The notes below the pieces were generated by a model. The model saw only the letters and a program-made list of their open reading frames with translations, had not been told where the DNA came from and ran no database searches. The translations under genes were made by a program, and so were the position numbers. A DNA stretch of 64,000 nucleotides from Minisyncoccota bacterium. Its GTDB lineage: Bacteria; Patescibacteriota; Minisyncoccia; Phycocordibacterales; Zambryskibacteraceae. Below, piece by piece: positions 13,880 through 31,157 of this stretch. The stretch covers positions 15,338-79,337 of the forward strand of contig DATDVZ010000010.1 of the NCBI GenBank assembly GCA_036517475.1, given 5' to 3'. Every line of letters begins with the position of its first letter. The stretch's first letter is position 1.

Positions 13880-13926
13880 ATAAAAAAGAATTTTAAAATC
13901 CTATCAAATTAATAGAAATCAAACAA

Positions 13927-14543: not shown

Positions 14544-14614
14544 TCGGGCTGCCGGGAATTGAACCCGGGCCTTACCCACCCCATGGGCAAATACTACCGT
14601 TATACTACAGCCCG
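14544..14614 (-). tRNA. tRNA-Pro (GGG), no encoded CCA
   Basis: C1:G70 first pair, discriminator A, loop ATGGGGT, T-arm CCGGG-TTCAATT-CCCGG. Confidence 0.75.
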
Positions 14615-14617
14615 TTA

Positions 14618-15130: not shown

Positions 15131-15132
15131 TG

Positions 15133-15203
15133 TCGGGGCGCCGAGAATCGAACTCGGCCCTCATGCTCCCAAAGCATGCATACTACCGATATACTACGCC
15201 CCG
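15133..15203 (-). tRNA. tRNA-Pro (UGG), no encoded CCA
   Basis: C1:G pair, anticodon stem CATGC/GCATG, loop TTTGGGA, T-arm CCGAG-TTCGATT-CTCGG. Confidence 0.8.
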
Positions 15204-15252
15204 AATTTCGGATTAATTTACACTGGTCGGCACCTCACTGGTATTCATTCGT

Positions 15253-15323
15253 TCGGGGTGCCGGGAATTGAACCCGATTCTCACGAACCCGAATCGTGTA
15301 TACTACCGGTGTACTACACCCCG
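15253..15323 (-). tRNA. tRNA-Pro (CGG), no encoded CCA
   Basis: C1:G pair, anticodon stem CACGA/TCGTG, loop TTCGGGT. Confidence 0.75.
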
Positions 15324-15370
15324 AAAATAACTTTCAAATCCTATCATAGAGACAGAAGAGCAGCGAATTT

Positions 15371-15754
15371 TTACAAAACAATATTTTCCATGTACTTCAC
15401 CTTAACTTTTTTATTCCCCTCATCAATCACCACTACCGCTACATCAAATTGCCAGTCAACCTCTAAATCTTTTTCAAGTAAATAAGTCTGAATTGTTCTT
15501 GATAACCTTTTCATTTTCCAGGGGTGAATGTTATCCTCCGGATTCCAAGAATCTAATGTTTCACGTGAAAACTCAGAAAAACTGACTGTTTTTACCTCAA
15601 CAAAATGAATTTTCCCGTCAATTTCTGCAATTATGTCAATTTCGCCCCATTTTCTTAGATAATTTCTTTCAATAATATTAGATTTTCTACTCTCAAGAAA
15701 TTTACAGGTAATTTCCTCACCAATATCACCAAATCTTCTTCTCTCGCTTTTCAT
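15371..15754 (-). CDS. YraN-family (UPF0102) endonuclease
   Basis: 127 aa; GDIGEEITCKFLESRKSNIIERNY...GEIDIIAEIDGKIHFVEVKT. Confidence 0.7.
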   Translation of the reverse strand: MKSERRRFGDIGEEITCKFLESRKSNIIERNYLRKWGEIDIIAEIDGKIHFVEVKTVSFSEFSRETLDSWNPEDNIHPWKMKRLSRTIQTYLLEKDLEVDWQFDVAVVVIDEGNKKVKVKYMENIVL

Positions 15755-15970
15755 AATTTAATTGATTTCACGTGAAACTAAAATATTAGTTACTAAGTAA
15801 CTTATTCAAAAATGTTACTTAGAAACACAATTAACTGATCTGTAATTAAATTCCTAATTAAAGGACGTCCTTTATACACATATCCACAGTTTTATCCCCA
15901 ATTCTTTGTCCTTTATATTTTAAATACAACCATACATATTTAAAGAATTGGGATTAAAATAAAGGACATT

Positions 15971-16041
15971 TGCGGGATGGGAGAATCGAACTCCCGACCA
16001 CAGTTTGGAAAACTGTTGTTTTGCCACTAAACTAATCCCGC
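15971..16041 (-). tRNA. tRNA-Gly (UCC), no encoded CCA
   Basis: GCGGGAT acceptor, anticodon stem ACAGT/ACTGT, loop TTTCCAA. Confidence 0.8.
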
Positions 16042-16043
16042 AT

Positions 16044-16115
16044 CGCACCCGTCAGGAATCGAACCCGAAATACGAAGTCCGAAGCTTCGCGTGATATCCG
16101 TTTCACTACGGGTGC
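16044..16115 (-). tRNA. tRNA-Arg (UCG), no encoded CCA
   Basis: GCACCCG acceptor, anticodon stem CGAAG/CTTCG, loop CTTCGGA. 2 nt from tRNA-Gly. Confidence 0.8.
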
Positions 16116-16157
16116 ACAGCTATATCATAACTTCAATTCTCCTAAATTTAAGGCTTA

Positions 16158-18047: not shown

Positions 18048-18073
18048 AAAAAAACCCATTACTTAATGGGTTT
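18048..18073. terminator. hairpin aaacccatt-actta-atgggttt overlapping the stop of the 18059 gene
   Basis: 9-bp stem, A/T runs on both sides. Confidence 0.6.
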
Positions 18074-19513
18074 TGACCAATTTAAAACTGTGTCTTGTAT
18101 CTGAAAACTCATAGTCTTGACTTGTTTTGCCATTAAGCCAGGTAAAGAATCTGCCTGTGTTACTGATGTAAGCCAAGGATTATCATTCATAGCATTTCTC
18201 ACCCCAATAGGAACATTCGGTCCGTACCAATCATTACCTCCGGGGTCTATTTCATCAAACCACTCTCCATCGCATATTCCATTTGGCGCCAAATTCCCTC
18301 CAAACATGATGTCACTGCAATTATCGGTTGTATGGCCAGGATTCAGATTGTCATGATTTGGGGCGTTTTGGTCGACAAATTGTATCGTGTGAAAATATTC
18401 ATGGATTAAGGTAGTGCTTTTAGCGGGGTGAATAATCTGAGGACACTCATCACCACTACCCGTAATAATTGCCCCCCACCACGCAGCAACTCCGCCATGA
18501 CCAGCTGGATTGATACCTTGATAGAAGATCATCTGCTTTACTGAATCTCTTATCAGGTTGTAAGACTTCAGCTCATTATGTATGACTCCAAAGGCATTAC
18601 TTTCGCCCGGACCCATAATTTCAGAATGAGAGTATTTTGATTGAAAGAAAAGTATATCAAACTGACCCCCAAAAAGGTCAAATTCAATAGTCTTTCCTAT
18701 ACCATACTTTTGAATTGACTTATTTGCCAGCCAGAACCTTGCATTCTGAATGACCACCCTTAAATATCCAGTTGTATCTAGACCACAATCGGTTGCACCT
18801 CGTGGCAAAAGATAAATAACTTTTGCCATATGGTGGCTTAAAACAGGACTATCCATGCGATTCTTCGTTACCCTCTTTTCAGGAGAGGGGGGCGCAGATA
18901 CAGTCACTTTTATTGTGTCTTCAACAAATCCGTTGTTATTTACACAGCGGATAATGTATAAGCTGGTGGTATCGGGCGAGAACTTCTCTATCAGGGGAGG
19001 ATTTTTTGCACCACTCCAACCACCAGAAGCATTGCAATATAGCGAGTACTGAGCCTCAAGTTCAATTGTTGCCGAATCTGTAATTGAAAAAGCTATTGAA
19101 ACGGGGGTTGCCGTGAATTTTACGATAACAGGCAATTGCGGAGGGGGTGCCACCAAAACCTCCGAACTTGCAGTCGCACTAAGACCTTCCCTTTCAACTT
19201 TTGCAACAATCTTATGGCTACCTTGATTAAACGTCCGTGCAGTGGAATAAAGACTGTTTTCAGAAATCGTATCCACTTCAAATGTCTGTCCGTTATTGAA
19301 ACTTACAAGATAACGGACAGGTCCTTTAGCCGTGCCACCGACAGAGACACCGACATTTACAGAAAGTGGTTCATTCCCGGATTGGGTTGAAAGACTAATT
19401 AAAGCGGATAGAGTTAGGGGAGGTGGAGGCGGGGGTAAGATGATTTCTCCACCGCCACAGGCCGCAAGTGCCAATGCACTTACGGCAATGAAACTGCTCT
19501 GCCGTTTGTGCAT
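18059..19513 (-). CDS. lipoprotein with C-terminal HEXXH zinc-metalloprotease-like domain
   Basis: 484 aa; lipobox LALAACGGG, poly-Pro linker, Ig-like beta region, HEYFH motif. GC visibly above local average. Confidence 0.5.
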   Translation of the reverse strand: MHKRQSSFIAVSALALAACGGGEIILPPPPPPLTLSALISLSTQSGNEPLSVNVGVSVGGTAKGPVRYLVSFNNGQTFEVDTISENSLYSTARTFNQGSHKIVAKVEREGLSATASSEVLVAPPPQLPVIVKFTATPVSIAFSITDSATIELEAQYSLYCNASGGWSGAKNPPLIEKFSPDTTSLYIIRCVNNNGFVEDTIKVTVSAPPSPEKRVTKNRMDSPVLSHHMAKVIYLLPRGATDCGLDTTGYLRVVIQNARFWLANKSIQKYGIGKTIEFDLFGGQFDILFFQSKYSHSEIMGPGESNAFGVIHNELKSYNLIRDSVKQMIFYQGINPAGHGGVAAWWGAIITGSGDECPQIIHPAKSTTLIHEYFHTIQFVDQNAPNHDNLNPGHTTDNCSDIMFGGNLAPNGICDGEWFDEIDPGGNDWYGPNVPIGVRNAMNDNPWLTSVTQADSLPGLMAKQVKTMSFQIQDTVLNWSKPIK

Positions 19514-19747: not shown

Positions 19748-20275
19748 ATGCCCCCAGAAAATAATTCCAATTCATCATCTAACAAAAAACTGATTACTTT
19801 GGTCGTTGTTTTTGTCGTATTAATCGCATTGGCATTTCTAATGTTAAAAAGTACCCCCCAAACAGTTACTGATACAGGAACATCTGATCAGGTAACCAGG
19901 GAAAGTGTGAAATTTGAACAGGTTAACTTAGAGGGGGTAATAAGTGAAGAAGAAAAATTGCCTTCCGGCTTTCCAAGAGACATCCCTATTGAAACAAAAG
20001 AAATATTTATAAGCGACACGAAAGTTTATACTGACAGAACTCCAAACGTAACTCTTTATACAGTAAATTACAGAACAGACAAAAGTGTTTCCGTAAAATA
20101 TTCGGAATATTTAAACTACATGACTAAGGCTCTATACTCTTTTGAACAAAACGGTAAAGATGAAAAAAATCATGCACTATACGGTTCCAAAAGTGGAAAC
20201 ACACTCTTAGTTGCTATTTCCAACACTGAAGGTAAAACTGTAGTACAAATTGTTTATACAAAGATAGGTAACTAA
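19748..20275 (+). CDS. membrane-anchored hypothetical protein
   Basis: 175 aa, N-terminal TM (LITLVVVFVVLIALAFLML). Confidence 0.35.
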   Translation: MPPENNSNSSSNKKLITLVVVFVVLIALAFLMLKSTPQTVTDTGTSDQVTRESVKFEQVNLEGVISEEEKLPSGFPRDIPIETKEIFISDTKVYTDRTPNVTLYTVNYRTDKSVSVKYSEYLNYMTKALYSFEQNGKDEKNHALYGSKSGNTLLVAISNTEGKTVVQIVYTKIGN

Positions 20276-20279: not shown

Positions 20280-23200
20280 ATGACTAAAAAAAAATCTATA
20301 AAGAAACCAGAAAGGTTCTCTCGACTAAATTTATTTTTCCTATCAGCTTCTTTATTTATAATTCTAGGAATTATCCCTGGTGCAAAGACTGATGCCCAAG
20401 CAAATGTTCGATTTGATGTGGTTGCAACTTCAGTAAATGACCTTGTAACTGCAAAAAGTAGTAGTCCCGGAACATCTTTCACATCAAACGGGATTTCGGG
20501 AACAACAGGAAGATTAATCACACCAAATGGATCGATAACAATAAGCCTTACACCTGAACAAGCGCTTCCAAACGGTTGGGAATGGCACCTTCTATGGGGA
20601 GATGGTGGACCGATACTGGCAAATAGTTCAACACCTCTGCCTGCAAATGCGGCGACAACTCCTGGCTGGCCTGGATACCCCGCATATGTTGACGCAAGTA
20701 CCCCAGGAACTCCCGGAAGTCCTGGCTTTAGCCCGCAATGTTCTGACAACTCCGATAACGATAACAACAGTTTAACTGATTATCCAAATGACCCAGGCTG
20801 TTTAGACCCAGAAGACAATGATGAAAGCGGTGGGGCAGCAAGTTTTAAATGGTTTAAACCCAAAAATGTATATGCTCAAACTTCTCAAACATTTACATTC
20901 AATATTTCAGGTCTTGATACAAGCCGCTTTTATTCCTTCGCTGTAGAACTTTGCGAACCACCAGGAATAACAACTTGCGGACAGATAGCTTGGGTAAGAG
21001 TAGGCGGACTTGATTTGAGAGGAACTTTAAATCAAACTGACTGGCAAAATTTTAATTTTTCAAATTATTCAAACGGACCAATAAGCGTGTCAGGAGATAA
21101 CTTGTATTTAGGTTCAGTGTGGGGTTCACCTGATGTCAGTTCTTGTCAATTAGTAAGTCCTTATAATACCAACTGGACAGTAAACTCATTCGGGGGGCCT
21201 GATTTGCAAAGATCACTTGGTCTACCATACTTTCCATCAACTTCAGGAAGTACTTACACTGTCATATGCACTTTTACTGATGGTGATGATGTTGCAGATA
21301 GTTTAACTGCAACAGATGCTGCTACAGCAACGATAAATGTAAACCAGCTTTGTACTAACGCTCAACCTGTATCATCCGGCGGCAGTTGGACTCTTAATCC
21401 AAGCGGACAAACTGGAGTTACAAATGCAGTTGTTCCCGGGACATACAATCTCACAGTTAACACACTACCTTCAAATGCCCTGTCAGTTTCATCCGTTACA
21501 AGCTCTGATGGGGGAAACAGCTTAAACATAATTTCCGGCCAGACTAAATCTTTTACAATCAATTACATCTGTATTCCTCCTTCCAATAATCCACCGGATG
21601 CTTATGCCGGACCCGATAAATTCATAACTTTACCAACTTCTTCTTCAGCCCCCACAGGAACATCGGCAACAGATTCAGACGGAACTATTTCAAGTACAGT
21701 CTGGACTAAAATTTCCGGTCCGTCGGCAACAATTACAAACGGAAATACTTTAAATCCCACATTCTCAAACATGAGTAGTGTCGGAACATATGTCTTCCAA
21801 TTAACAGTAACTGATAATGGAAGCCCGGCGCTTACAGATACTGATGATATGCAAGTTGTTGTCTCTGCAGCCCCAAACATTCCTCCTTCCGTATATGCCG
21901 GTACTGATAAAACAATTACTTTGCCGACAACAACTTCTGCCCCGACCAGCGCTTCAGCAACAGATTCAGATGGAACAATTATAAGCCAAAATTGGACTAA
22001 GATTTCAGGTCCATCTGCAACAATTACAAATGGCTCAACTCTCAATCCGACTTTTTCCAATATGAGCAGCGTCGGAACTTATGTTTTCAGATTAACAGCA
22101 ACAGATGACGATGGGGCTTCAGCTTCTGACGATATGCAGGTTACAGTCAATGACGTTTCACCACCGCCACCACCTGCTGGATTAACGGTCACAACATCTT
22201 CAACATGCGGCGGTTATATTAATGTCAGCTGGAATTCTGCCTCTGGAGCAACTGGCTATAAAATTTACAGAGATGGCAGTGGGTCAGGAATTGATGTTGG
22301 AAATGTTTTGACTTACTCTGATGGACCTTTTGCACTCGGTTCAAGTCACTCCTATAGAGTCACGGCGTATAATTCTGGCGGAGAATCTTCTCAAAGCGGC
22401 TCGCAATCAGGCACAGCTTCGGGAACTTGCAACATCTCTCCCACAGCAAATGCCGGACCAGATAAACCAATACAACTTCCAACAACAACATCGGCTCCAA
22501 CCGGAACATCTGCAACAGATTCAGACGGAACTATTTCAAGCACGGTTTGGAGTAAAGACTCTGGGCCGTCGGCAACAATTACCAATGGAAACACTTTGAA
22601 TCCCACATTCTCCAACATGACTACAGCTGGAACATATGTTTTCCGCCTGACTGTTACGGATAATCAAGGTTCGCAAGGATTTGATACTATGCAGGTGGTG
22701 GTGTCTCCGGCGGGCAACATCTCTCCCACAGCAAATGCCGGACCAGATAAATTCATAACTTTACCAACTTCTTCTTCAGCCCCCACTGGCACTTCCGCTA
22801 CTGATTCTGATGGAACGATTACAAGCACCGTTTGGAGTAAAATTTCGGGACCCTCAGCTACTATTTCCAATGGTTCAAGTTTGAGCCCAACATTTTCAAA
22901 TATGAATACTGTTGGAACTTACGTTTTCAGATTAACAGCAACAGATGATGATGGGGCATCGGCAACTAACGATATGCAAGTAGTTGTTTCTGCTGCAGCA
23001 AATGCTCCGCCATCAGCAAATGCCGGACCAGATAAATCAATACAACTTCCGACAAGCACATCAGCACCAACCGGAACTTCTGCGACTGACTCTGACAGCA
23101 CAATTTCAAGTACAGTCTGGACTAAAATTTCCGGTCCGTCGGCAACAATTACAAACGGAAGTACTTTAAATCCCACATTCTCAAACATGAGTAGTGTCGG

Positions 23201-24407
23201 AACATATGTATTCCGATTAACAGTAACTGATAATGGAAGCCCAGCGCTTACAGACACTGACGATATGCAGGTTGTAGTTACTCAATCAACGATAACAGTA
23301 ACAGAAAATGGTGGAGCTGGTGGTACTTGGACAATTAATCCAGGGGGCTATACTGGGGGAAATAACACAGTTACTCCCGCCGCAGCTCCAGGGGGAACAA
23401 CCTACACATTAACAGTTAATAGCGTGCCGGCGGGAAAAACTGTTTCTTCAATTACCTCAACTGATGGTGGCAACTCCCTGAATTTAATTCCTGGACAGAC
23501 GAAAAATTTCACAATCAATTACGGCAGTAACGCCGCACCCACTGCAAATGCTGGACCAGATAAGCCAATTACCCTCCCGACAACAACTTCTGCCCCAACA
23601 GGAACATCTGCTACTGACTCTGATGGAACAATAGCAAGTACAATCTGGAGTTTTCAGGGGGGACCGGGGCCGACTCCGACAATTACAAATGGTTCTACTC
23701 TTAACCCATCATTTTCTGGTATGACTGTAGCAGGAACTTATACTTTCCGTCTGACAGCAACCGATAATCTGGGTGCCACAGGGTCGGATAACATGAATGT
23801 TGTAGTATCTTCTCCGCCTTTTAACTATTCACTTTCAAATAATGGCCCGATAACAATTGTTAAGGGTGGCTCACAGGGCCAAGTTACAATAACTAAAACT
23901 TTAAGTAGCGGCACTGGCCAGAACGTAACCTTAACTGCAACAGGACAACCCGCAGATGTGTCAGTAACATATCCAAATCAGGATTGTGCTCCGACTTGTT
24001 CTGGTTTTGTGACATTTCAAGTCCCCGCTGGTTCCTCTGATAGCCCCGGTCCTTACACCATTACAGTTACTGGACAACCCCTTGGAAAAACTACAATTTT
24101 CAATCTTACAATAAACAATCCAGCCAATGTAACAATCTCACCGTGTAACTCTTTGGGATGCCCGAGTGGAGGCGGACTTATTGGAGACCCAAACACATTT
24201 ACAGCAAATCCAGTGGGGTGCAGTTCTTATACATGGAGCGGAACTGATTTACCAACATCCCCGGCCCCAACAGGCAACCCCCTAAGTTGGACTTATCAGA
24301 CTACTGGCCTTAAAACCATAACAGTTGATACAGTATGTAGTGGAGTACCACGCCAAGGCCAGACAACATTACAGATAAATGTGAATCCATTGTTTAGAGA
24401 ATTTTGA
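20280..24407 (+). CDS. giant secreted surface protein with 7 PKD-type repeats and one FN3 domain
   Basis: 1375 aa; signal peptide; repeated AGPDKxIxLPTxxSAPTGTSATDSDGTIxSTVWxKISGPSATITNGxTLNPTFSNMxxxGTYVFRLTVTDxxG units; FN3 at about 22160-22430. Stop TGA is followed by a terminator. Confidence 0.75.
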   Translation: MTKKKSIKKPERFSRLNLFFLSASLFIILGIIPGAKTDAQANVRFDVVATSVNDLVTAKSSSPGTSFTSNGISGTTGRLITPNGSITISLTPEQALPNGWEWHLLWGDGGPILANSSTPLPANAATTPGWPGYPAYVDASTPGTPGSPGFSPQCSDNSDNDNNSLTDYPNDPGCLDPEDNDESGGAASFKWFKPKNVYAQTSQTFTFNISGLDTSRFYSFAVELCEPPGITTCGQIAWVRVGGLDLRGTLNQTDWQNFNFSNYSNGPISVSGDNLYLGSVWGSPDVSSCQLVSPYNTNWTVNSFGGPDLQRSLGLPYFPSTSGSTYTVICTFTDGDDVADSLTATDAATATINVNQLCTNAQPVSSGGSWTLNPSGQTGVTNAVVPGTYNLTVNTLPSNALSVSSVTSSDGGNSLNIISGQTKSFTINYICIPPSNNPPDAYAGPDKFITLPTSSSAPTGTSATDSDGTISSTVWTKISGPSATITNGNTLNPTFSNMSSVGTYVFQLTVTDNGSPALTDTDDMQVVVSAAPNIPPSVYAGTDKTITLPTTTSAPTSASATDSDGTIISQNWTKISGPSATITNGSTLNPTFSNMSSVGTYVFRLTATDDDGASASDDMQVTVNDVSPPPPPAGLTVTTSSTCGGYINVSWNSASGATGYKIYRDGSGSGIDVGNVLTYSDGPFALGSSHSYRVTAYNSGGESSQSGSQSGTASGTCNISPTANAGPDKPIQLPTTTSAPTGTSATDSDGTISSTVWSKDSGPSATITNGNTLNPTFSNMTTAGTYVFRLTVTDNQGSQGFDTMQVVVSPAGNISPTANAGPDKFITLPTSSSAPTGTSATDSDGTITSTVWSKISGPSATISNGSSLSPTFSNMNTVGTYVFRLTATDDDGASATNDMQVVVSAAANAPPSANAGPDKSIQLPTSTSAPTGTSATDSDSTISSTVWTKISGPSATITNGSTLNPTFSNMSSVGTYVFRLTVTDNGSPALTDTDDMQVVVTQSTITVTENGGAGGTWTINPGGYTGGNNTVTPAAAPGGTTYTLTVNSVPAGKTVSSITSTDGGNSLNLIPGQTKNFTINYGSNAAPTANAGPDKPITLPTTTSAPTGTSATDSDGTIASTIWSFQGGPGPTPTITNGSTLNPSFSGMTVAGTYTFRLTATDNLGATGSDNMNVVVSSPPFNYSLSNNGPITIVKGGSQGQVTITKTLSSGTGQNVTLTATGQPADVSVTYPNQDCAPTCSGFVTFQVPAGSSDSPGPYTITVTGQPLGKTTIFNLTINNPANVTISPCNSLGCPSGGGLIGDPNTFTANPVGCSSYTWSGTDLPTSPAPTGNPLSWTYQTTGLKTITVDTVCSGVPRQGQTTLQINVNPLFREF
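21590..23810 (+). repeat. intragenic tandem repeat region (about 280-bp PKD units). Units 21706-21870 and 23123-23285 are about 95% identical.
   Basis: seen directly at DNA and protein level. Confidence 0.8.
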
Positions 24408-24408: not shown

Positions 24409-24445
24409 CGAGGACACATAATAACTTTCCATCAGGAAAGTTATT
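24409..24445 (+). terminator. perfect 13-bp stem hairpin (ataataactttcc atcag ggaaagttattat) after the adhesin gene
   Basis: seen directly. Confidence 0.6.
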
Positions 24446-24497
24446 ATGTTTGCGGTATTGTCCGAGCTCACCCTGTCAAATAAAATCAAATTCAAAT

Positions 24498-24761
24498 ATG
24501 GGTAGATATTATTATGTGTATGCCCTGCTATCAAAAAAAGATAAAAAATTCTATACTGGTTACACAAATAATTTGATTTTAAGATTTGAGCAACATCAAC
24601 TCGGTCGGGTTGAATCAACGAAATTACGTGGGCCATTTATTCCTGTATATTATGAGGCATGCTTAAGCAAGAAGGATGCTATTCATTGAGAAAGATACTT
24701 GATAACCACATACGGTAAAAGATATCTAAGAAACAGGCTCAAATCTTATTTGACAGGGTAA
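24498..24761 (+). pseudogene. GIY-YIG nuclease family gene with in-frame TGA at 24687-24689 (likely CGA to TGA); reading frame and conserved C-terminus continue to TAA at 24759
   Basis: MGRYYYVYALLSKKDKKFYTGYTNNLILRFEQH...YYEACLSKKDAIH-TGA-ERYLITTYGKRYLRNRLKSYLTG. The C-terminal ERY.KTT.GK..LR motif is typical of this family. Confidence 0.5.
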
Positions 24762-26513
24762 ATGCACATTGAAGAAAAACAACTGAAAGAATTTATTCTT
24801 GATTCGGGACTTGTGTCTCGAAGCCAGATTGATGCGGCGGAAAAAGAGGCAAAAGCAAAAAAACAAAGCGTGGGTAAAATTCTGGTAAGTCAGGGCAAAA
24901 TTACAGAGGACGACCTAAGAAGAATCCAGGCCTATATACTTGGAATCCCCTTCGTTGACCTCAAGACCACTCATACTGATTTTGAAACCCTCTCCCTTAT
25001 ACCCGAGCCGATTGCAAGAAGCCATAATATTATCGCTTTCCGCAGGAAAGATGATTCTCTAGAAGTTGCCATGCTTGAAATTGAGGATTTGGCAGCAATT
25101 GATTTTATCCGGAAAAAAACAGGACTCAAAATTCTGCCCCGTCTTACTGACACTGAGTCAATAAAAAGCGCGCTTCTCTCATATCAAAAATCCCTTAAAG
25201 CAGAGTTCGGCGATATTATTGAAAAAGAGGTTGGATCAATAAAAAATCTCAAGGTCGGAACAGATGAAGACTTAAATGAAGTTGATTTAAAAAAACTTGC
25301 CGAAGATATTCCTGTTGTCCGCATAGTAGATACGCTGCTCAAGCATGCCATCATTCAGGATGCTTCAGATATCCATATTGAACCTCAAGAAAAAGAGGTA
25401 TTGGTACGTTATCGTATTGACGGAATTTTGCGTGATGCTATGGTCTTGCCCAAAAATACAGCGGGAGCAATAACTGCAAGAATAAAAGTCCTTGCAAATT
25501 TAAAGCTAGATGAAAAAAGAATCCCGCAGGACGGCAGATTTAAAATAGATACCAGCAGTGAAAGAGTTTCGCTTCGAGTTTCTACTCTGCCTACATATTT
25601 CGGTGAAAAAACAGTCATGAGACTTCTGCGCGAGGGTTCTTCAGGATTTACTCTTGAAGCTTTGGGCTTCCATGGTGATGGTCTTGAGAAATTGCATAAG
25701 GCGGTCAAACTTGCAAATGGCATGATTTTAACAACTGGCCCGACAGGTTGCGGTAAAACTACAACTCTTTACACCCTCCTTGATATTTTAAACACTCCGG
25801 ACGTCAATATTTCCACAATTGAAGATCCTATTGAATATCAGATTCAAAGAATTAACCAGACACAAGTTAAACCTGAAATTGGTTTTACTTTTGCAACAGG
25901 ATTAAGAACCCTTGTCCGTCAGGATCCAGATATAATCATGGTTGGAGAAATCAGAGATACCGAGACGGCCGCCCTTGCGGTAAATGCGGCCCTGACCGGA
26001 CATTTGGTCTTATCGTCTCTGCATACCAACTCCGCCGCCGGAACAATAGCGCGTTTAATTGATATGAAAATTGAGCCGTTTCTCCTGACTTCCACGCTTT
26101 CAGTTATTGTTGCCCAACGTCTTATCAGGCGTCTTTCTGAAACTAAAGAAAAATATTTTATGTCAAAAGAGGAAATCGACTCCCTTTCCAAAATTGTTGA
26201 TCTTGAAAGAGTTATGCGTTTTCTGAAAGAAGAAAAGATAGTAACTAAAAACACCGAATGGCAGGAAATACCAGTTTACAAACCGATTCCTTCATCAGAA
26301 AGTGAGGATGGTTATAAATCTAGAATCGGCATCCACGAGGTTTTGGTCGTAAGCCAATCAGCGCGTGACCTTATTATGAAAGGAGTTACCACAGAAGAAT
26401 TAGAAGAGCAAGCAAAAAAAGAGGGGATGCTTACAATGCTTGAAGATGGAGTATTCAAAGTAGTTCAAGGTATTACAACAGTGGAGGAAGTTTTGAGGGT
26501 AGTTTCAGAATAG
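24762..26513 (+). CDS. pilB: type IV pilus assembly ATPase PilB (GspE family)
   Basis: 583 aa; N-terminal T2SE_N-like domain, Walker A TGPTGCGKTTTL, Asp/His boxes. Confidence 0.9.
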   Translation: MHIEEKQLKEFILDSGLVSRSQIDAAEKEAKAKKQSVGKILVSQGKITEDDLRRIQAYILGIPFVDLKTTHTDFETLSLIPEPIARSHNIIAFRRKDDSLEVAMLEIEDLAAIDFIRKKTGLKILPRLTDTESIKSALLSYQKSLKAEFGDIIEKEVGSIKNLKVGTDEDLNEVDLKKLAEDIPVVRIVDTLLKHAIIQDASDIHIEPQEKEVLVRYRIDGILRDAMVLPKNTAGAITARIKVLANLKLDEKRIPQDGRFKIDTSSERVSLRVSTLPTYFGEKTVMRLLREGSSGFTLEALGFHGDGLEKLHKAVKLANGMILTTGPTGCGKTTTLYTLLDILNTPDVNISTIEDPIEYQIQRINQTQVKPEIGFTFATGLRTLVRQDPDIIMVGEIRDTETAALAVNAALTGHLVLSSLHTNSAAGTIARLIDMKIEPFLLTSTLSVIVAQRLIRRLSETKEKYFMSKEEIDSLSKIVDLERVMRFLKEEKIVTKNTEWQEIPVYKPIPSSESEDGYKSRIGIHEVLVVSQSARDLIMKGVTTEELEEQAKKEGMLTMLEDGVFKVVQGITTVEEVLRVVSE

Positions 26514-26541
26514 CTAAAATTTTAATTTAAATTTTAATATC

Positions 26542-27759
26542 GTGGCAATATACAAATTTAAGGCAATAGGAAAAGAAGGAAAAACTTACGAGAGTACGAT
26601 TGAAGCAACTGATCGTGCCGCAGTATTTGAGAAAATAAAAAAGGATGGCGGAACGATCCTATATCTTGATGAGATAAAATCAAAAGTAAATCCTCTTTCA
26701 AAAATATTTTCCCAGTTTTCAACAATAAAAACGTATGAAAAAATTACTTTTGCTAGAAACCTTGGATCAATGATTGAGGCGGGTCTTTCAGTCACACGTG
26801 CTCTAGGAGTTATGGAAAAACAAACTAAAAACAAAAAACTTAAGGAGCTCCTTAACAAAGTCTACGATGACATTTCACATGGTAAAAATTTAAGTGAGGC
26901 CTTAAGAAATTTTCAGAAAGTTTTTTCACCGCTTTTTATCTCAATGGTTAAGGCTGGAGAAGAGAGCGGCAATCTGGCTCAATCTTTAAAAATCATATCT
27001 TTGCAGATGGAGCGTTCCTATGCATTAGTAAGAAAAGTTCGTGGCGCCCTAATCTATCCTGCAGTGATAATTTCAGTTATGATCGTAATCGGTATTCTTA
27101 TGATGATTTATATGGTTCCTACTCTTTCTGCGACCTTTCAAGGTCTGGGAATTGATTTGCCTCTTACAACTAGAATAATAATTTCAATAAGTGATTTCTT
27201 GAGATATAAATTCTTGCTATTCATTAGCATTGTGGTTGTAATCGCACTTGGAACCATACTTTTCTTCAGAAGTGTGAAGGGTAGAAGGATTTTTGATTTT
27301 CTGGTTATAAGATTGCCGCTTGTTGGATCTCTTGTACGCGAAGTTAATGCCGCTAGAACCGCCAGAACTCTTTCTTCGCTCTTATCCTCTGGAGTTGAAG
27401 TGGTGGGAGCGCTATCAGTTACTAGAGATGTGATACAAAACAGTTATTACAAGGAAGTCTTAGGAAAGGCGGAAGTTGTAATTCAAAAAGGAGAACCAAT
27501 ATCATCAATCTTTATCCAAAATGAAAAACTTTATCCCATTTTCGTCGGTGAAATGATTGCGGTGGGGGAAGAAACAGGAAAACTCTCCGACATGCTTCTG
27601 GGGGTTGCAAACTTTTATGAAGAGGAGGTTGATCAAAAAACAAAAAATCTCTCAACTGTCATTGAGCCGGTTTTGATGGTGATAATCGGGGTAGCTGTCG
27701 GAATTTTTGCAATATCAATGCTTATGCCGACATACTCTTTGGTTGATAAAATCGGTTGA
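26542..27759 (+). CDS. pilC: type IV pilus platform protein PilC (GspF family)
   Basis: 405 aa, two GspF repeats, 3 TM. Confidence 0.88.
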   Translation: MAIYKFKAIGKEGKTYESTIEATDRAAVFEKIKKDGGTILYLDEIKSKVNPLSKIFSQFSTIKTYEKITFARNLGSMIEAGLSVTRALGVMEKQTKNKKLKELLNKVYDDISHGKNLSEALRNFQKVFSPLFISMVKAGEESGNLAQSLKIISLQMERSYALVRKVRGALIYPAVIISVMIVIGILMMIYMVPTLSATFQGLGIDLPLTTRIIISISDFLRYKFLLFISIVVVIALGTILFFRSVKGRRIFDFLVIRLPLVGSLVREVNAARTARTLSSLLSSGVEVVGALSVTRDVIQNSYYKEVLGKAEVVIQKGEPISSIFIQNEKLYPIFVGEMIAVGEETGKLSDMLLGVANFYEEEVDQKTKNLSTVIEPVLMVIIGVAVGIFAISMLMPTYSLVDKIG

Positions 27760-27768
27760 TAAAATCCA

Positions 27769-28269
27769 ATGAGACCAAATGTTAATTACAAAAAAAAGAG
27801 ACTCTTTACCCCGTTAGAGAAAACCCCAACTGGGTTTACTGCAATAGAAATCTTAATATCTGTGGCAATTCTTGCCGCCCTTGCAATTCTTACCTTCTCA
27901 TCATTTTCTAGCCTCTCTCAAAGCCAGATTTTGGAAAAAGAGTCTCTAAATGTTCTTTCAGCAATTGAAAAAGCCCGGTCAATGACTCTATCGTCAGAGA
28001 AGGATTCAGTGTGGGGGGTTCGTTTTGACACAGACTCCGTTGTAATTTTTAAGGAGAATTACTCTTCAGGAGACCCAGATAATATTACAATTGATCTTAA
28101 CTCTGGAGTTACGATAAGTTCCACCAACTTAAACGGGGGTGGAAGTAGTGTTATTTTTGAAAAATTAACTGGTGAAACACAAAACTTTGGTACTACCACA
28201 TTGAGATCTAAGATAAATTCAACAAAAAATATTATAATTTTAAGTACCGGAATAGCCCAAATAAAATGA
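27769..28269 (+). CDS. prepilin-type N-terminal domain protein (pilin/pseudopilin)
   Basis: GFTAIEILISVAILAALA class III signal motif. Confidence 0.6.
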   Translation: MRPNVNYKKKRLFTPLEKTPTGFTAIEILISVAILAALAILTFSSFSSLSQSQILEKESLNVLSAIEKARSMTLSSEKDSVWGVRFDTDSVVIFKENYSSGDPDNITIDLNSGVTISSTNLNGGGSSVIFEKLTGETQNFGTTTLRSKINSTKNIIILSTGIAQIK

Positions 28270-28751
28270 TAAAGTTCAAACAACAAAAAAAGGAAGGGCT
28301 AGCATTACTTGAGGCAGTTATTGCTACTTCAATTGTTGTTTTGTTTCTCTCGTCCCTAATTGGCGCTTACAACCTTTATCTGCGAGTTTCTCTAGAAAAT
28401 TTAAGAAAAGTCCAGGCAACTTTTCTGGCAGAAGAAGGAGTTGAGGCGCTGAGACTGCTACGGGACAACTCCTGGTCAAATATTTCAAACTTGTCTCTTA
28501 CTACTGATTACAAACTAGTTTGGAACGGCGTTTCTTGGGCAACCACAACAAACACTATTGTGAGTGATGGCAAATTTTTCAGAACATTCAGACTGGGAGA
28601 AGTGCTGAGAGATTCTAATTCTGACATAGTTTTAAGCAGTGGAACAAGCGATCAAAACAGTCGAAAAATTACAGTCAAGGTTGAGTGGAACGAACACGGA
28701 GCTACTAGTACAAAAATTATTGAGGCTTATACTAGTAATCTTTTTAACTGA
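28266..28751 (+). CDS. prepilin-like minor pilin
   Basis: EGLALLEAVIATSIVVLFL N-terminal motif. Confidence 0.5.
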   Translation: MIKFKQQKKEGLALLEAVIATSIVVLFLSSLIGAYNLYLRVSLENLRKVQATFLAEEGVEALRLLRDNSWSNISNLSLTTDYKLVWNGVSWATTTNTIVSDGKFFRTFRLGEVLRDSNSDIVLSSGTSDQNSRKITVKVEWNEHGATSTKIIEAYTSNLFN

Positions 28752-29272
28752 TGGCTATTCAAACAAAAAAAATTTATAAGAGGGGAACTTCAATTGTGGA
28801 AATGCTTATTTACTTAGCAATTCTTTCATTTTTGCTTGTTGTAATCGTCAGCCTGCTTTCAAACTTGCTAAATTCCCAAAAAAGATCCAATGCCTCAAGG
28901 AATGTCGAAAGAGCTGGTATTTTCGCAATCGAAAGAATAGTCAGGGAGATCCGCAATGCCTCAAGTGTTGATACGGCCGGATCTGTTCTTTCCTCAAATC
29001 CGGGAGTACTGAAGTTAAATTACACATCCGGAGGCGCCAGTCATAACGTGAGATTCTATCTTGAGAACGGCATTTTATATCTGGAGGAAGACGGCAACCT
29101 TGTGGGAGCGCTAACTAATGACAAATCTAGGCTTACAAATTTGGTTTTTTATAGAATTTTAAGTTCAAATTCTGAGGCAATAAAAGTTGAAGTGACTGCG
29201 GAATCAGGCCTTGAGGAAGCGTATAAATCGGCAAATTTCTTTACCACTGCTGTTATGCGTGGCTCATATTAA
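28751..29272 (+). CDS. prepilin-like minor pilin
   Basis: RGTSIVEMLIYLAILSFLLVV N-terminal motif. Confidence 0.55.
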   Translation: MAIQTKKIYKRGTSIVEMLIYLAILSFLLVVIVSLLSNLLNSQKRSNASRNVERAGIFAIERIVREIRNASSVDTAGSVLSSNPGVLKLNYTSGGASHNVRFYLENGILYLEEDGNLVGALTNDKSRLTNLVFYRILSSNSEAIKVEVTAESGLEEAYKSANFFTTAVMRGSY

Positions 29273-29420
29273 TATGAAAAATATTTTTGAAAAAATTTTG
29301 AAAGACTATAAGAGTTATTACGGGCTCGGCCACCGAAATCCCGCCACGGCGGGATTAGACGGCCAAGCCCCGTTAGAAACTTTTAATTCAAAAGATAAGC
29401 AAAATCATGATCGATTTCAA

Positions 29421-31157
29421 ATGGGGCAAGCAATGATAATAGCTGTTATGTTATTCGTCTTTATCTCACTTGTAGTATTAATGGGTATAGTTGGACCCTC
29501 CCTACGGCAAAAGGCAATCGTGGCTGATTTACTGCAGTCCAGAGACAGTTATTTTTTGGCTGAATCCGGAACAGAGGATGTGATTTACAGACTCAAAAAT
29601 AATCTGCCTGTTGCCTCAAACGGTCAGACAACAAACATTTCAGGAAAGGTTGGGACAACAAATACGGTCGATGCCGGCGGCACAAAAACTGTCACAACAG
29701 TAGCCGACTGGAACGGCAGAATAAGAAAAGTCTCAGTTGAGCTAAACGCCGGTGTCGGAATTTCATTCAGCTACGGAATTCAAACTGGTTACGGCGGTCT
29801 GATTCTGAGTAACAATGCAGGTATAAACGGCAATGTTTATGCCAATGGAAATATTTTTGGGGAAAATGGATCATTTATTACCGGCGGGGCAATAGCTGCC
29901 AACAGTCCTTCTCTTACGGCGGATCAAAGCAATCTTCAACCAACTTCGCCGCCCCATTCAATTAAATTCAGAGACACGTCGGGAACTCAGGACTTGGGAC
30001 AAAAATTTCAGGTAAGCACCACTGCGCCGTTAAACAAACTGCAGTTTTATATAAAAAAGAACGGAAGTCCCTCAAGTGCGACTGTAAAAGTAGTAAATGA
30101 CAACGGCGATAAGCCCGGAACAACTGTATATGCTTCTGGTTCGCTTATCTCATCTCAAGTAACAACAAACTATTCTCTTGTTGATGTGGTTTTGACTTCA
30201 AACCCCTCCCTTCTTCTTAATACAAACTACTGGGTAGTAATTGATAACAGTAGCCAGTCCACTACCAACTACTACACTGTTGCAGCAAACACTTTTTATG
30301 CTTCAGGTTACGCAAAAGTCGGTCAGCAGGGCGGCACATGGAATAACACTTCACCTTCAGCGCTTGACTCCTATTTTTCTGTTCTTGTCGGCGGAACTGT
30401 GGCAACTATAAGCGGAGTAACCATAGGATCGGCAGGCACGGGGGATGCATGGGCTCACATTGTAAACAACTCATCAATAGCTGGAAACCTTTACTGCCAT
30501 ACTGGTTCAAACAACAACAAATCCTGCAATACCTCACGATCTGATCCGAGTCAGCAGCCTTTTCCAATCTCTCAGGGTAATATTGACCAATGGAAAACTG
30601 AAGCTGAATCCGGAACTATATTCAACGGCAATAAAACAATAACTTCAACAAATGCGAGTCTTGGGCCTATGAAAATTGTTGGGAATCTAACTATTTCAAA
30701 CAATGCTACTCTGACGGTAACCGGAACAATATGGGTTACTGGTGATGTAAGTACTTCAAACAACGTTAACGTTCGGCTCTCACCTTCATACGGAGCCGGA
30801 AGTGGAGTGATAGTAACTGACGGAAAGATAAACATTTCCAACAATGCCACCTTCAGCGGCTCAGGAACACAAGGAAGTTATCTGATGGTCCTTTCTACAA
30901 GCAACTGTCCGACAGGACCATCATGCGGCGGTAGTAATGCAGTAAGTGTTGGCAATAATGCCGGCGCAGTAATCCTAGTTGCCCAAGACGGAACAATATA
31001 TTTCAGCAATAACGCTGGTGCAAAAGAGGTAATAGCTGGCAAACTTTCTTTGAGCAATAACGCCGTAATTACATATGAAAGCGGCCTCATTGATCTAAAC
31101 TTTACTAACGGACCTTCCGGGGGTTGGGATATCTTAAACTGGACTGAAACAGAATAA
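29421..31157 (+). CDS. large PilX-like minor pilin / pilus-associated beta-rich adhesin
   Basis: N-term GQAMIIAVMLFVFISLVVLMG resembles the PilX N-domain, then a Ser/Thr/Asn-rich beta region. The ORF-track start 29211 was rejected because the upstream part is a GC-rich hairpin region. Confidence 0.5.
   Translation: MGQAMIIAVMLFVFISLVVLMGIVGPSLRQKAIVADLLQSRDSYFLAESGTEDVIYRLKNNLPVASNGQTTNISGKVGTTNTVDAGGTKTVTTVADWNGRIRKVSVELNAGVGISFSYGIQTGYGGLILSNNAGINGNVYANGNIFGENGSFITGGAIAANSPSLTADQSNLQPTSPPHSIKFRDTSGTQDLGQKFQVSTTAPLNKLQFYIKKNGSPSSATVKVVNDNGDKPGTTVYASGSLISSQVTTNYSLVDVVLTSNPSLLLNTNYWVVIDNSSQSTTNYYTVAANTFYASGYAKVGQQGGTWNNTSPSALDSYFSVLVGGTVATISGVTIGSAGTGDAWAHIVNNSSIAGNLYCHTGSNNNKSCNTSRSDPSQQPFPISQGNIDQWKTEAESGTIFNGNKTITSTNASLGPMKIVGNLTISNNATLTVTGTIWVTGDVSTSNNVNVRLSPSYGAGSGVIVTDGKINISNNATFSGSGTQGSYLMVLSTSNCPTGPSCGGSNAVSVGNNAGAVILVAQDGTIYFSNNAGAKEVIAGKLSLSNNAVITYESGLIDLNFTNGPSGGWDILNWTETE

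What the first reader, a model, noticed from the sequence alone, without database searches (positions are those of the whole stretch)
20280..24407. Giant PKD-repeat surface protein with very recent internal segmental duplications
The 1375-aa secreted protein has seven PKD-like units of about 90 aa plus an FN3 domain. Two composite blocks (a beta domain plus PKD unit, at about 21340-21870 and about 23290-23790) are duplicated. PKD unit 1 (21706-21870) and PKD unit 5 (23123-23285) are about 95% identical at the DNA level. Such fresh intragenic repeats allow recombinational length variation of a surface adhesin. The gene lies immediately upstream of the pilus operon and downstream of a lipoprotein metalloprotease, a plausible host-attachment module for an epibiont.
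Basis: seen in the sequence. Interest (0 to 1): 0.5.

Follow-up and report, generated by a model that had tools for sequence, protein, structure and literature searches.

The report
Pilus-linked modular PKD-repeat surface protein
A real 1375-residue secreted protein of an ultrasmall Paceibacteria bacterium: its PKD repeats are old and patched by gene conversion, not freshly duplicated, and it belongs to an undescribed family with a fixed C-terminal base and tail, encoded beside a small membrane protein and the type IV pilus genes.

Summary
The ORF 20280-24407 (+, 1375 aa) is real. It has six K319L-like PKD units with a 95-aa period (Pfam E 1.6e-109), an FN3-like domain, two copies of a small unclassified beta domain, and a terminal Ig/PKD-like domain.

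The units are mostly 64-75% identical in DNA. That equals their distance from single PKD units in other genomes, so the array is old. What is recent is a mosaic of gene-conversion tracts. The largest covers about 180 nt of units 1 and 5 at 93% identity. The 5' parts of those units are only 65% identical.

The gene is base-identical in an independent assembly, and no length variant exists in its 90% cluster.

The last ~205 aa end in an invariant N-P-x-F-(E/R)-E-F carboxy terminus. This module defines an unannotated Paceibacteria family whose N-terminal payloads differ completely between genomes. The nearest orthologue has no K319L PKD at all.

In about 12 or more distinct loci the family gene sits next to a ~175-aa single-pass membrane protein, next to pilB-pilC, or both.

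Most likely it is a cell-surface adhesin-like stalk linked to the pilus locus. The mechanism is inferred, not shown.

The parts
18059..19513 (-). Divergently transcribed putative lipoprotein with an HExxH motif (484 aa).
   Evidence: N-terminus MHKRQSSFIAVSALALAAC and HEYFH at aa 371. No Pfam or NCBIfam hit. Lipoproteins with HExxH sit at the same position in L003 and L083, and upstream on the same strand in L087. The L003 and L083 proteins are homologous to each other; the window protein shows no BLAST-detectable homology to them.
19748..20275 (+). 'p175': a 175-aa single-pass membrane protein. Its stop lies 4 nt before the start of the large gene, so it is probably co-transcribed. It is the partner-gene family of the large protein.
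   Evidence: Translation. The TM helix is the only confident part of the AF2 model. Homologues lie next to genes carrying the same C-terminal module in at least 11 distinct loci. No significant Pfam or PDB match.
20280..24407 (+). The 1375-aa secreted modular protein, deposited as HEY4490192.1 'hypothetical protein' [Candidatus Paceibacterota bacterium].
20280..20396 (+). Sec-type signal peptide: a K/R-rich n-region, a hydrophobic core at aa 13-37, then ...TDAQA.
   Evidence: Read from the sequence, plus the Kyte-Doolittle scan. The cleavage site is inferred.
20397..21050 (+). N-terminal 'head' (aa 40-257). It is nearly an orphan.
   Evidence: One true homologue, P0100 (E 1.1e-48, 52% identity over query residues 14-216). 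No Pfam hit. The AF2 model is unusable (pLDDT 35).
20739..20801 (+). Cys-bounded acidic loop CSDNSDNDNNSLTDYPNDPGC inside the head. It is one copy of a ~35-aa motif repeated up to 30 times in hundreds of other proteins.
   Evidence: 961 proteins at E<=1e-3, nearly all matching query residues ~110-145. Examples are P0091, P0092, P0093, P0109 and P0146. No Pfam family.
21051..21338 (+). Cys-containing beta-rich domain (aa 258-353), probably Ig-like.
   Evidence: 33% identity to P0048 residues 420-515. No Pfam hit. The fold is inferred.
21339..21584 (+). Beta domain copy 1 (~80 aa, unclassified).
   Evidence: 61% aa identity to copy 2 and 33-45% to copies in L003 and P0100. 67% to P0048 residues 160-224. 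No Pfam or PDB hit.
21585..21875 (+). K319L-like PKD unit 1.
21876..22160 (+). K319L-like PKD unit 2.
22161..22430 (+). FN3-like domain.
   Evidence: Pfam fn3 E 0.018, below cutoff. PDB Fn3-like 3mpc E 5e-4 and the GH31 FN3 domain E 1.9e-4. 42-48% identity to the FN3 of L003, L083 and L086.
22431..22715 (+). K319L-like PKD unit 3.
22716..23000 (+). K319L-like PKD unit 4, a mosaic. Its first 36 nt are identical to unit 3, and nt 31-71 are identical to unit 1.
   Evidence: Run test: U3/U4 P<5e-5, U1/U4 P=5e-5.
23001..23285 (+). K319L-like PKD unit 5.
21687..21861 (+). Gene-conversion tract, unit 1 side. Its partner is 23103-23277 in unit 5.
   Evidence: 93% identity against 65% in the 5' part (Fisher P 1.4e-9). 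Same-amino-acid codons are identical in 88% of cases, against 40-59% for other pairs. Run test P=1.5e-4.
23103..23277 (+). Gene-conversion tract, unit 5 side.
23286..23528 (+). Beta domain copy 2.
   Evidence: (family D3).
23529..23816 (+). K319L-like PKD unit 6, with a 2-aa insertion (SFQGGPGPTP).
   Evidence: It is closer to the single unit of P0069 (83% aa) than to units 1-5 (64-74%).
23817..24404 (+). Conserved C-terminal module that defines the family: an Ig-like domain followed by a PKD/Ig-like domain.
   Evidence: 38-48% identity across the 13 sequences of alignment A5. HMM hits in 22 or more loci. Some members hit PKD, SprB or Ig_3, and the profile hits PDB Hoc.
24384..24404 (+). Carboxy-terminal tail N-P-L-F-R-E-F, followed by the stop codon.
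   Evidence: P, F, E and F are invariant, and N and the preceding E are at least 90% conserved, in 13 of 13 aligned members. The tail is also seen after an unrelated last domain in P0069 (DPNYREF). A DNA pattern for NPxFEEF-stop recovered many further members.
24416..24449 (+). Perfect 15-bp stem with a 4-nt loop, 9 nt after the stop codon. Possibly a terminator.
   Evidence: pair I2. The terminator scan did not call it.
24762..31157 (+). Type IV pilus gene block: pilB (24762-26513), pilC (26542-27759), three minor-pilin-like genes (27769-29272), and a 627/648-aa protein (to 31157).
   Evidence: Pfam T2SSE E 3.6e-121, T2SSF 8.4e-56, and weak N_methyl hits. NCBIfam minor-pilin hits are below cutoff. 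The block is conserved in most of 80 related loci.

Best explanation
The ORF encodes a Sec-secreted, cell-surface, adhesin-like 'stalk' protein of a Paceibacteria (Patescibacteria/CPR) bacterium.

It belongs to an unannotated lineage-specific family built on one plan. The constant part is a ~205-aa C-terminal base: an Ig-like domain, then a PKD/Ig-like domain ending in an invariant N-P-x-F-(E/R)-E-F carboxy terminus. The N-terminal payload is exchangeable. In this gene the payload is an orphan head, two small beta domains, six K319L-like PKD units and an FN3-like domain.

The family gene is genetically coupled to a ~175-aa single-pass membrane protein (p175) and to the pilB-pilC type IV pilus genes.

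The inferred mechanism is as follows. The conserved base and tail hold the protein at the cell surface, by docking to p175 or to the pilus machinery. The Ig-like and PKD units form a rigid spacer. The variable distal part makes contact with a host cell or substrate.

Within the gene the PKD units are old paralogues. Occasional gene conversion between them produces a mosaic. Between genomes whole payload cassettes are replaced.

Shown: the domain content, the mosaic, the conserved base and tail, and the gene neighbourhood. Inferred: surface retention, the role of p175, and adhesion.
For: Gene and domains:
- ORF, Sec-type signal peptide, no other TM segment, no LPxTG.
- Six K319L PKD units. FN3-like domain.

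Repeat history:
- Units are 64-75% identical in DNA, both within the gene and to single units in other genomes.
- Significant conversion tracts: U1/U5, U3/U4 and U1/U4.

Exchangeable payload on a constant base:
- The syntenic gene in the nearest relative (L003, pilB 80% identical) shares p175, both beta domains, FN3, the C-terminal module (46%) and the tail.
- That gene has no K319L PKD. It carries different Cys-Ig repeats, including a 100% identical 2 x 282-nt tandem.
- A third syntenic gene, P0048 in L083, carries PA14 instead.
- Other family members range from 278 aa (base only) to 1017 aa with unrelated N-terminal parts.

Conserved base and tail:
- P, F, E and F of the tail are invariant in 13 of 13 aligned members.
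- A DNA pattern for the tail alone recovered about 20 further members.

Neighbourhood:
- Family gene, then p175, then pilB: L115/L122/L167, L131, L181, L186, L208 (L111 is truncated).
- p175, then family gene, then pilB: the window, L003, L083.
- Family gene, then pilB directly: L103/L163, L104, L173.
- p175 plus a tail-bearing protein with no pilus genes nearby: L085.

Literature:
- PKD/Ig-like secreted proteins of Paceibacterales are highly expressed during parasitism and were proposed as adhesion proteins (PMC10936435).
- Type IV pili and predicted surface adhesins are essential in a Saccharibacterium (PMC11665869).
Against: - There is no experimental or structural evidence for adhesion, surface retention, or any p175 interaction.
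- AF2 models of the head and of p175 were unusable (pLDDT 35 and 44).
- p175 lies between the family gene and pilB in most loci. It could simply be a pilus-assembly component, such as a PilN/PilO/GspM-like bitopic protein, rather than a partner of the large protein.
- In 79 of 80 pilB loci from related species representatives, neither the C-terminal module nor p175 is present. The coupling is therefore restricted to a sub-lineage.
- Some family loci show neither neighbour, but their flanks are short (L134, L144, L145, L168).
- The tail might only be the end of the last beta strand. Against this, it also follows a different last domain in P0069.
Confidence: 0.6

Rival explanations
1. It is a pilus-associated adhesin in the strict sense. 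The conserved C-terminal base and tail would dock onto the minor-pilin/tip complex, as a functional analogue of PilY1/PilC, so that the variable payload is displayed on the type IV pilus rather than on the cell body.
For: - The gene sits immediately upstream of pilB-pilC and the minor pilins in at least 11 distinct loci.
- Looser relatives P0073 and P0081, with tails PDFIEN and PIFIEN, occupy the same position.
- The large protein after the minor pilins (29211-31157) and its homologues end in similar aromatic-x-E-x tails: NWTETE, WKEN, WIEF.
Against: - There is no PilY1/Neisseria_PilC domain and no prepilin motif.
- The gene has its own hairpin, and a GIY-YIG ORF separates it from pilB.
- In L085 the family pair lies next to nusG with no pilus genes, and in L090, L124 and L165 the downstream neighbour is TIM.
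- The similarity of the tails to the pilus-operon protein is loose.
Confidence: 0.2
2. It is a structural envelope or S-layer-type protein. The conserved C-terminal module would be the envelope anchor and the variable outer part would be under diversifying pressure, for example from phage. The pilus adjacency would then be a historical accident of one sub-lineage.
For: - A conserved anchor with a hypervariable exposed part is typical of S-layer and envelope proteins (general knowledge).
- The composition is rich in Thr, Ser, Gly, Pro and Asn.
- Payloads include low-complexity NYS/YQ repeats in L168 and L202.
Against: - No SLH or other known anchor domain was found.
- Family sizes from 278 to 1375 aa, with unrelated payloads, argue against a lattice-forming protein.
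- The recurring pilB and p175 adjacency is hard to explain as chance.
Confidence: 0.12
3. It is a secreted polymer-binding or enzyme-accessory protein. K319L/PKD arrays often flank hydrolases or carbohydrate-binding modules, and this protein would have no role in cell-cell attachment.
For: - The best full-length database hits are Bacteroidota secreted multi-domain proteins.
- The NCBIfam model for the myxosortase-dependent M36 metallopeptidase matches the PKD array (E 3.1e-61, 206.9 bits against a cutoff of 1500).
- A putative lipoprotein metalloprotease lies next door.
Against: - No catalytic or CBM domain was detected anywhere in the protein.
- The M36 match covers only the PKD region and is far below cutoff.
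- The conserved neighbourhood is pilus genes, not a polysaccharide-utilisation or protease operon.
Confidence: 0.06
4. The repeat structure is an assembly artefact, meaning a collapse or chimera of near-identical repeats.
For: The sequence comes from short-read metagenome assemblies. The near-identical U1/U5 tract could in principle mislead an assembler.
Against: - The longest exact intragenic repeat is 48 nt, and most unit pairs are only 64-75% identical.
- The 4128-nt gene is base-identical in a second assembly made with another assembler from another ENA analysis. Apart from 13 mismatches bunched at that contig's end, the 16.5-kb locus differs at 3 positions.
- The reading frame is intact through all units.
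Confidence: 0.02

Closest known systems
Bacteroidota T9SS-secreted K319L-PKD / 'tandem-95 repeat' proteins (e.g. P0003 'T9SS type B sorting domain-containing protein' [Cyclobacteriaceae], P0008 'tandem-95 repeat protein')
   Same: Arrays of K319L-like PKD units with a 95-aa period. They are 36-41% identical over the array, which is 54-59% of the query. They are large, secreted, multi-domain beta-sandwich proteins.
   Different: Those proteins end in T9SS C-terminal sorting domains (PF18962, PF13585), which are absent here. Their heads and C-termini are unrelated. The host here is a Patescibacteria lineage. The NCBIfam tand_rpt_95 model scores 24.8 bits against a cutoff of 90.
Gram-positive repeat-stalk surface adhesins anchored by LPXTG and sortase (the SasG/Aap, Esp, Bap type; from general knowledge)
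   Same: The same overall plan: signal peptide, variable N-terminal head, a repeated beta-sandwich stalk prone to intragenic recombination, and a conserved C-terminal retention element.
   Different: There is no LPXTG, no C-terminal TM helix and no charged tail. The C-terminus is a free N-P-x-F-(E/R)-E-F. No copy-number variants were observed.
PilY1/PilC-type type IV pilus-associated adhesins (from general knowledge)
   Same: A large protein with a Sec signal, encoded beside type IV pilus genes and presumed to mediate attachment.
   Different: No PilY1 beta-propeller domain was detected. The gene lies upstream of pilB rather than inside the minor-pilin cluster. Its composition is different.
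Ig-like/PKD-domain secreted proteins of Paceibacterales that are highly expressed during parasitism of methanogens (PMX.108_01191 and others; PMC10936435)
   Same: The same bacterial class, a secreted protein with PKD/Ig-like domains, and a proposed role in host adhesion.
   Different: Sequence relatedness to those proteins was not tested here. That paper does not describe the C-terminal module, the tail, the p175 partner, or the pilB synteny.

Membership tests
K319L-like PKD domain (Pfam PF22352) | Match to the family HMM above the gathering score of 27 bits. | tested here: met
   358.6 bits, E 1.6e-109, six stretches, best stretch 1-84 of 84 profile positions.
NCBIfam NF012211 tandem-95 repeat protein | Score at or above the 90-bit cutoff. 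| tested here: not met
   24.8 bits, E 1.5e-5. The repeat period of 95 aa is the same.
Fibronectin type III (Pfam PF00041) | Match above the gathering score of 25 bits. | tested here: inconclusive
   15.7 bits, E 0.018, covering positions 2-78 of 84. PDB Fn3 domains match at E 1.9e-4 to 2.7e-3.
T9SS cargo (Bacteroidota) | A C-terminal T9SS sorting domain (PF18962 type A or PF13585 type B). | tested here: not met
   Neither domain appears in the Pfam scan of the whole protein or of its C-terminal parts.
Sortase-anchored LPXTG surface proteins | An LPXTG-type motif followed by a hydrophobic helix and a basic tail at the C-terminus. | tested here: not met
   The only LPxTG-like strings are internal (aa 432, 451, 828). 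The only hydrophobic window is aa 13-37. The protein ends ...NPLFREF.
PilY1/PilC pilus tip adhesins | A C-terminal PilY1/Neisseria_PilC beta-propeller domain. | tested here: not met
   No such Pfam or NCBIfam hit.
Type IV pilins / pseudopilins | An N-terminal prepilin cleavage/methylation motif (N_methyl, TIGR02532). | tested here: not met
   Absent from the large protein and from p175. Present weakly in the three downstream small genes.
Proposed new family: 'NPxFEEF-tail' modular proteins of Paceibacteria (defined here) | A ~205-aa C-terminal two-domain module that ends in N-P-x-F-(E/R)-E-F at the carboxy terminus. | tested here: met
   The window protein scores 228.5 bits (E 5.2e-68) against the A5 profile. 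It is itself a member of that alignment, and is 38-48% identical to the 12 others. P, F, E and F of the tail are invariant.
Proposed new family: 'NPxFEEF-tail' modular proteins of Paceibacteria (defined here) | Adjacency to a p175-family single-pass membrane protein gene, to pilB-pilC, or to both. | tested here: met
   p175 ends 4 nt upstream and pilB starts 355 nt downstream. The same neighbours occur in at least 11 other distinct loci.
PilN/PilO/GspM-type bitopic assembly proteins (considered for p175) | A match to PilN (PF05137), PilO (PF04350) or T2SSM (PF04612). | tested here: not met
   None of the 10 family members hits these at E<=1. The PDB profile search gives nothing significant; the best hits are FliL at E 0.076 and PrgL at E 0.38. 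The fold could not be tested because the AF2 pLDDT was 44.

The most novel reading that the evidence does not exclude
The invariant carboxy-terminal N-P-x-F-(E/R)-E-F tail, with its ~205-aa base, is a previously undescribed surface-retention or pilus-docking signal of Paceibacteria.

The co-encoded p175 membrane protein, or the pilus machinery, would read this signal. Evolution could then plug almost any payload onto one constant anchor: PKD arrays, Cys-Ig repeats, PA14, CARDB, or low-complexity spacers. The payload would set host or substrate specificity.

This would make the locus a swappable host-attachment cassette next to the type IV pilus genes.
Probability: 0.3. Interest if true: 0.7.

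Novelty: new variant of a known kind. Interest (0 to 1): 0.45.

Why it matters
How ultrasmall Patescibacteria recognise and hold on to their hosts is largely unknown outside a few cultured Saccharibacteria. There, type IV pili and predicted surface adhesins are essential (PMC11665869).

This locus offers a concrete, testable candidate in the much larger and uncultured Paceibacteria. It is a family with a fixed C-terminal base and tail, a dedicated small membrane partner, and a position beside pilB. Its exposed part is replaced wholesale between close relatives.

If the tail is a sorting or docking signal, it gives a sequence handle: a 7-residue C-terminus plus an HMM. That handle could be used to list the surface-displayed proteins of these organisms and to compare payloads with host range.

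The internal repeat mosaic itself is ordinary biology for repeat-stalk proteins.

Tried and rejected
1. Searches for relatives of the N-terminal 396 aa.
- The word-indexed search found only a fragment of the same gene (P0090, ending in translated adapter EIGRAHV) and hits to the Cys-loop motif.
- Back-translated scans of GTDB genomes and JGI metagenomes found nothing.
- The exhaustive HMMER search found one true head homologue, P0100. The other hits were almost all to the 35-aa motif.

2. The word-indexed search with the C-terminal 201 aa gave a single hit, P0094. The family became visible only through the DNA pattern for the tail.

3. Structure prediction failed. The head with a 3-sequence alignment gave pLDDT 35, and p175 as a single sequence gave pLDDT 44. 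No fold search was run.

4. Pfam, NCBIfam and PDB searches gave nothing significant for p175, the 484-aa lipoprotein, the beta domain or the head.

5. The promoter and terminator scan around the gene gave counts no higher than in shuffled sequence.

6. The search for length variants found none. The 90% cluster holds only the protein and the fragment.

7. I first read '16 mismatches outside the gene and 0 inside' between the two assemblies as meaningful. I rejected this: 13 of the 16 are bunched at the contig end.

8. One identity value (P0081 unit against U2, 100%) is an end-gap alignment artefact and is not used.

9. The lipoprotein protease as a general family neighbour is not supported. Only L003 and L083 are detectably homologous to each other, and none appeared in the metagenome loci.

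Full report
**What is at the coordinates**

A single ORF runs from 20280 to 24407 on the plus strand and encodes 1375 aa.
- The exact protein is deposited as HEY4490192.1, 'hypothetical protein', Candidatus Paceibacterota bacterium.
- pilB next door is 80% identical to that of an uncultured Patescibacteria MAG and 58-72% identical to about 80 Paceibacteria/Parcubacteria MAGs. The host is therefore a Paceibacteria (CPR) bacterium.
- The protein has one hydrophobic segment (aa 13-37) after a K/R-rich start and before ...TDAQA. This looks like a Sec signal peptide.
- It has no other hydrophobic window and no LPxTG-type anchor.

**Domain content**

Pfam finds six K319L-like PKD units (PF22352, E 1.6e-109). 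Their period is 285-291 nt, or 95-97 aa. In order along the protein:

| Segment | Window coordinates | Notes |
|---|---|---|
| Signal peptide | 20280-20396 | inferred from sequence |
| Head | 20397-21050 | nearly an orphan |
| Cys-containing beta-rich domain | 21051-21338 | probably Ig-like |
| Beta domain 1 | 21339-21584 | unclassified |
| U1 | 21585-21875 | K319L PKD |
| U2 | 21876-22160 | K319L PKD |
| FN3-like | 22161-22430 | see below |
| U3 | 22431-22715 | K319L PKD |
| U4 | 22716-23000 | K319L PKD |
| U5 | 23001-23285 | K319L PKD |
| Beta domain 2 | 23286-23528 | unclassified |
| U6 | 23529-23816 | K319L PKD |
| C-terminal module | 23817-24404 | two domains plus tail |

- FN3 is below Pfam's threshold (E 0.018) but matches solved Fn3 domains at E 2e-4 to 5e-4.
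- That terminal domain is recognisable as PKD/Ig-like only through its family.

**Are the repeats recent?**

Mostly not.
- Pairwise DNA identity between units is 64-75%, apart from U1/U5 at 83%.
- Protein identity within the gene is 64-77%. Identity to the single K319L units of three other Paceibacteria proteins is no lower: 66-83% to P0069, 68-76% to P0073 and 60-72% to P0081.
- DNA identity to those outside units is 64-72%.
- U6 is closer to the P0069 unit (83%) than to any sister unit.
- The array is therefore about as old as the divergence between these genomes.

The recent signal is patchy.
- U1 and U5 differ at 36 of 102 positions in the 5' part and at only 12 of 183 in the 3' part (Fisher P 1.4e-9).
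- In that 3' tract, codons for identical amino acids are themselves identical in 88% of cases, against 40-59% for other pairs. The similarity therefore reflects shared recent ancestry, not protein-level constraint.
- U4 shares its first 36 nt exactly with U3, and nt 31-71 exactly with U1.
- A Sawyer-type run test on the 152 polymorphic sites gives P<5e-5 for U3/U4, 5e-5 for U1/U4 and 1.5e-4 for U1/U5.
- This is the signature of gene conversion between paralogous units, not of fresh segmental duplication.

- The two beta domains are 61% identical in protein here and 41% identical in the orthologue.
- This again suggests some homogenisation inside the gene.

**Artefact?**

Unlikely.
- The longest exact intragenic repeat is 48 nt.
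- The 4128-nt gene is base-identical in an independent MEGAHIT assembly from another ENA analysis. Outside 13 mismatches bunched at that contig's end, the 16.5-kb locus differs at 3 positions.

No length variants are on record.
- The exact protein is on 8 contigs, but that look-up is by exact sequence.
- Its 90% cluster among about 15 billion proteins holds only itself and a fragment ending in translated sequencing adapter.

**The orthologue changes the picture**

In the nearest relative (L003) the syntenic gene is 970 aa.
- It follows a 36%-identical homologue of the small upstream gene.
- It shares both beta domains, the FN3 (42%), the last ~200 aa (46%) and the very C-terminus.
- It has no K319L PKD unit. 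It carries a different Cys-containing Ig-like repeat, including two 282-nt copies that are 100% identical in tandem.

A third syntenic gene (P0048 in L083, pilB 79%) carries a PA14 domain instead. The frame is conserved and the payload is swapped.

**A family defined by its C-terminus**

- The last seven residues read NPLFREF here, NPIFEEF in L003, DPIFEEF in P0048 and NPAFEEF in P0094.
- In P0069 they read DPNYREF, after an unrelated last domain (Flg_new_2).
- A DNA pattern for N-P-x-F-E-E-F-stop, run on JGI metagenome contigs, returned many chance hits. It also returned about 20 loci whose ORFs end ...TVTDxxxxxxxCxxxxxVQINFNPxFEEF.
- Thirteen C-terminal modules align at 38-48% identity to the window protein. 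P, F, E and F of the tail are invariant.
- N-terminal parts range from almost nothing (278 aa in total) through NYS/YQ low-complexity tracts to 1017-aa multi-domain proteins unrelated to this one.
- No Pfam or NCBIfam model covers the module.

**Neighbourhood**

HMMs of the module and of the small upstream protein (p175) were run on all ORFs of all held loci.

| Arrangement | Loci |
|---|---|
| Family gene, p175, pilB | L115/L122/L167, L131, L181, L186, L208 (L111 truncated) |
| p175, family gene, pilB | window, L003, L083 |
| Family gene, pilB directly | L103/L163, L104, L173 |
| Family gene (with or without p175), then TIM | L090, L124, L165 |
| p175, then tail-bearing P0069, no pilus genes | L085 |

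- In the 80 pilB loci of species representatives, both module and p175 occur only in L003. They are present together or absent together.
- Looser relatives (P0073 and P0081, tails PDFIEN and PIFIEN) also sit directly upstream of pilB.

About p175:
- It is a single-pass membrane protein with a ~110-aa conserved ectodomain (alignment).
- It has no significant Pfam or PDB match.
- Its fold could not be predicted.

**The metalloprotease claim**

- The 484-aa ORF on the minus strand has a lipobox and HEYFH but no family hit.
- Lipoproteins with HExxH occupy the same position in L003 and L083, and one lies upstream in L087.
- Homology to the window protein is not detectable, and none was seen in the metagenome loci.
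- The claim is plausible by motif and position in close relatives only.

**Interpretation**

The best-supported reading is a surface-exposed, adhesin-like stalk.
- A conserved C-terminal base and tail act as the cell-proximal or machinery-proximal end.
- Ig/PKD/FN3 units act as a spacer.
- A variable head is the distal end.
- The gene is genetically coupled to p175 and the pilus genes.

This agrees with reports that secreted PKD/Ig-like proteins are highly expressed in parasitic Paceibacterales (PMC10936435). It also agrees with the finding that pili and predicted adhesins are essential in a Saccharibacterium (PMC11665869).

Adhesion, surface retention and the role of p175 are inferences. p175 may instead be a pilus-assembly component.

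**Verdict**

- The repeat biology is ordinary.
- The conserved tail-bearing base with swappable payload, next to p175 and pilB, appears to be undescribed and is worth a focused follow-up.

Noticed in passing
window 24470-24761: A 63-codon GIY-YIG ORF lies at 24498-24689 (Pfam E 1.2e-11). It ends at an in-frame TGA, and the frame then continues for 23 codons (ERYLITTYGKRYLRNRLKSYLTG) to a TAA at 24759-24761, directly abutting the pilB ATG. The unit is bracketed by 17-nt inverted repeats (24470-24486 and 24743-24759, 94% complementary). It looks like a small inserted GIY-YIG element carrying a nonsense mutation or a read-through codon. A GIY-YIG gene sits elsewhere in the related locus L083.
   Followed up: partly
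window 20739-20801 (aa 154-174 of the large protein): The Cys-bounded acidic motif C-x-D-x-x-D-N-D-x-x-x-L-x-D-Y-P-x-D-P-G-C is one copy of a ~35-aa repeat. The repeat occurs in 961 representative proteins at E<=1e-3, with up to 30 copies per protein. Named examples are from Patescibacteria. No Pfam family matched it. It resembles calcium-binding thrombospondin-type-3 loops, but that comparison is from memory only.
   Followed up: partly
L003 6914-7477: The orthologous gene of the nearest relative contains two tandem 282-nt copies of a Cys-Ig-like unit that are 100% identical. This is a truly fresh duplication. In a short-read MAG its true copy number is uncertain.
   Followed up: partly
window 29211-31157: A 627/648-aa protein follows the three minor-pilin-like genes. 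It is conserved in most related pilB loci (28-49% identity) and gives only a weak PilX_N hit (E 0.13). It and its homologues end in aromatic-x-E-x tails (NWTETE, WKEN, WIEF), loosely like the tail of the large protein.
   Followed up: partly
window 13806-16116: A cluster of six tRNA genes lies on the minus strand: Gly-GCC, Pro-GGG, Pro-UGG, Pro-CGG, Gly-UCC and Arg-UCG. All three Pro isoacceptors are present. Small unannotated ORFs are interspersed.
   Followed up: no
window 18059-19513 (minus strand): The putative lipoprotein with HEYFH also contains an Ig-like segment with a C-x-A-S-G-G-W-S-G-A-K motif. That motif resembles the repeat unit used as payload in the L003 orthologue (CTASNGWSGAK). 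The same small domain may therefore circulate among secreted proteins of this lineage.
   Followed up: no
L014 3648-8813, L043 36-4028, L020 7753-9792, L004 7200-8699: Other related pilB loci carry large ORFs of 495-1716 aa with signal-peptide-like N-termini directly upstream of pilB. They lack the C-terminal module, and their tails end ...GGGEI...TIKEI...TAICL and ...IQEK. A variable large secreted protein at this position may be more general than the family described here.
   Followed up: partly
window 41745-43397: A 551-aa ORF gives a weak hit (E 1e-6, 28.4 bits) to the profile of the C-terminal module, presumably through an Ig/PKD-like domain. It was not examined further.
   Followed up: no
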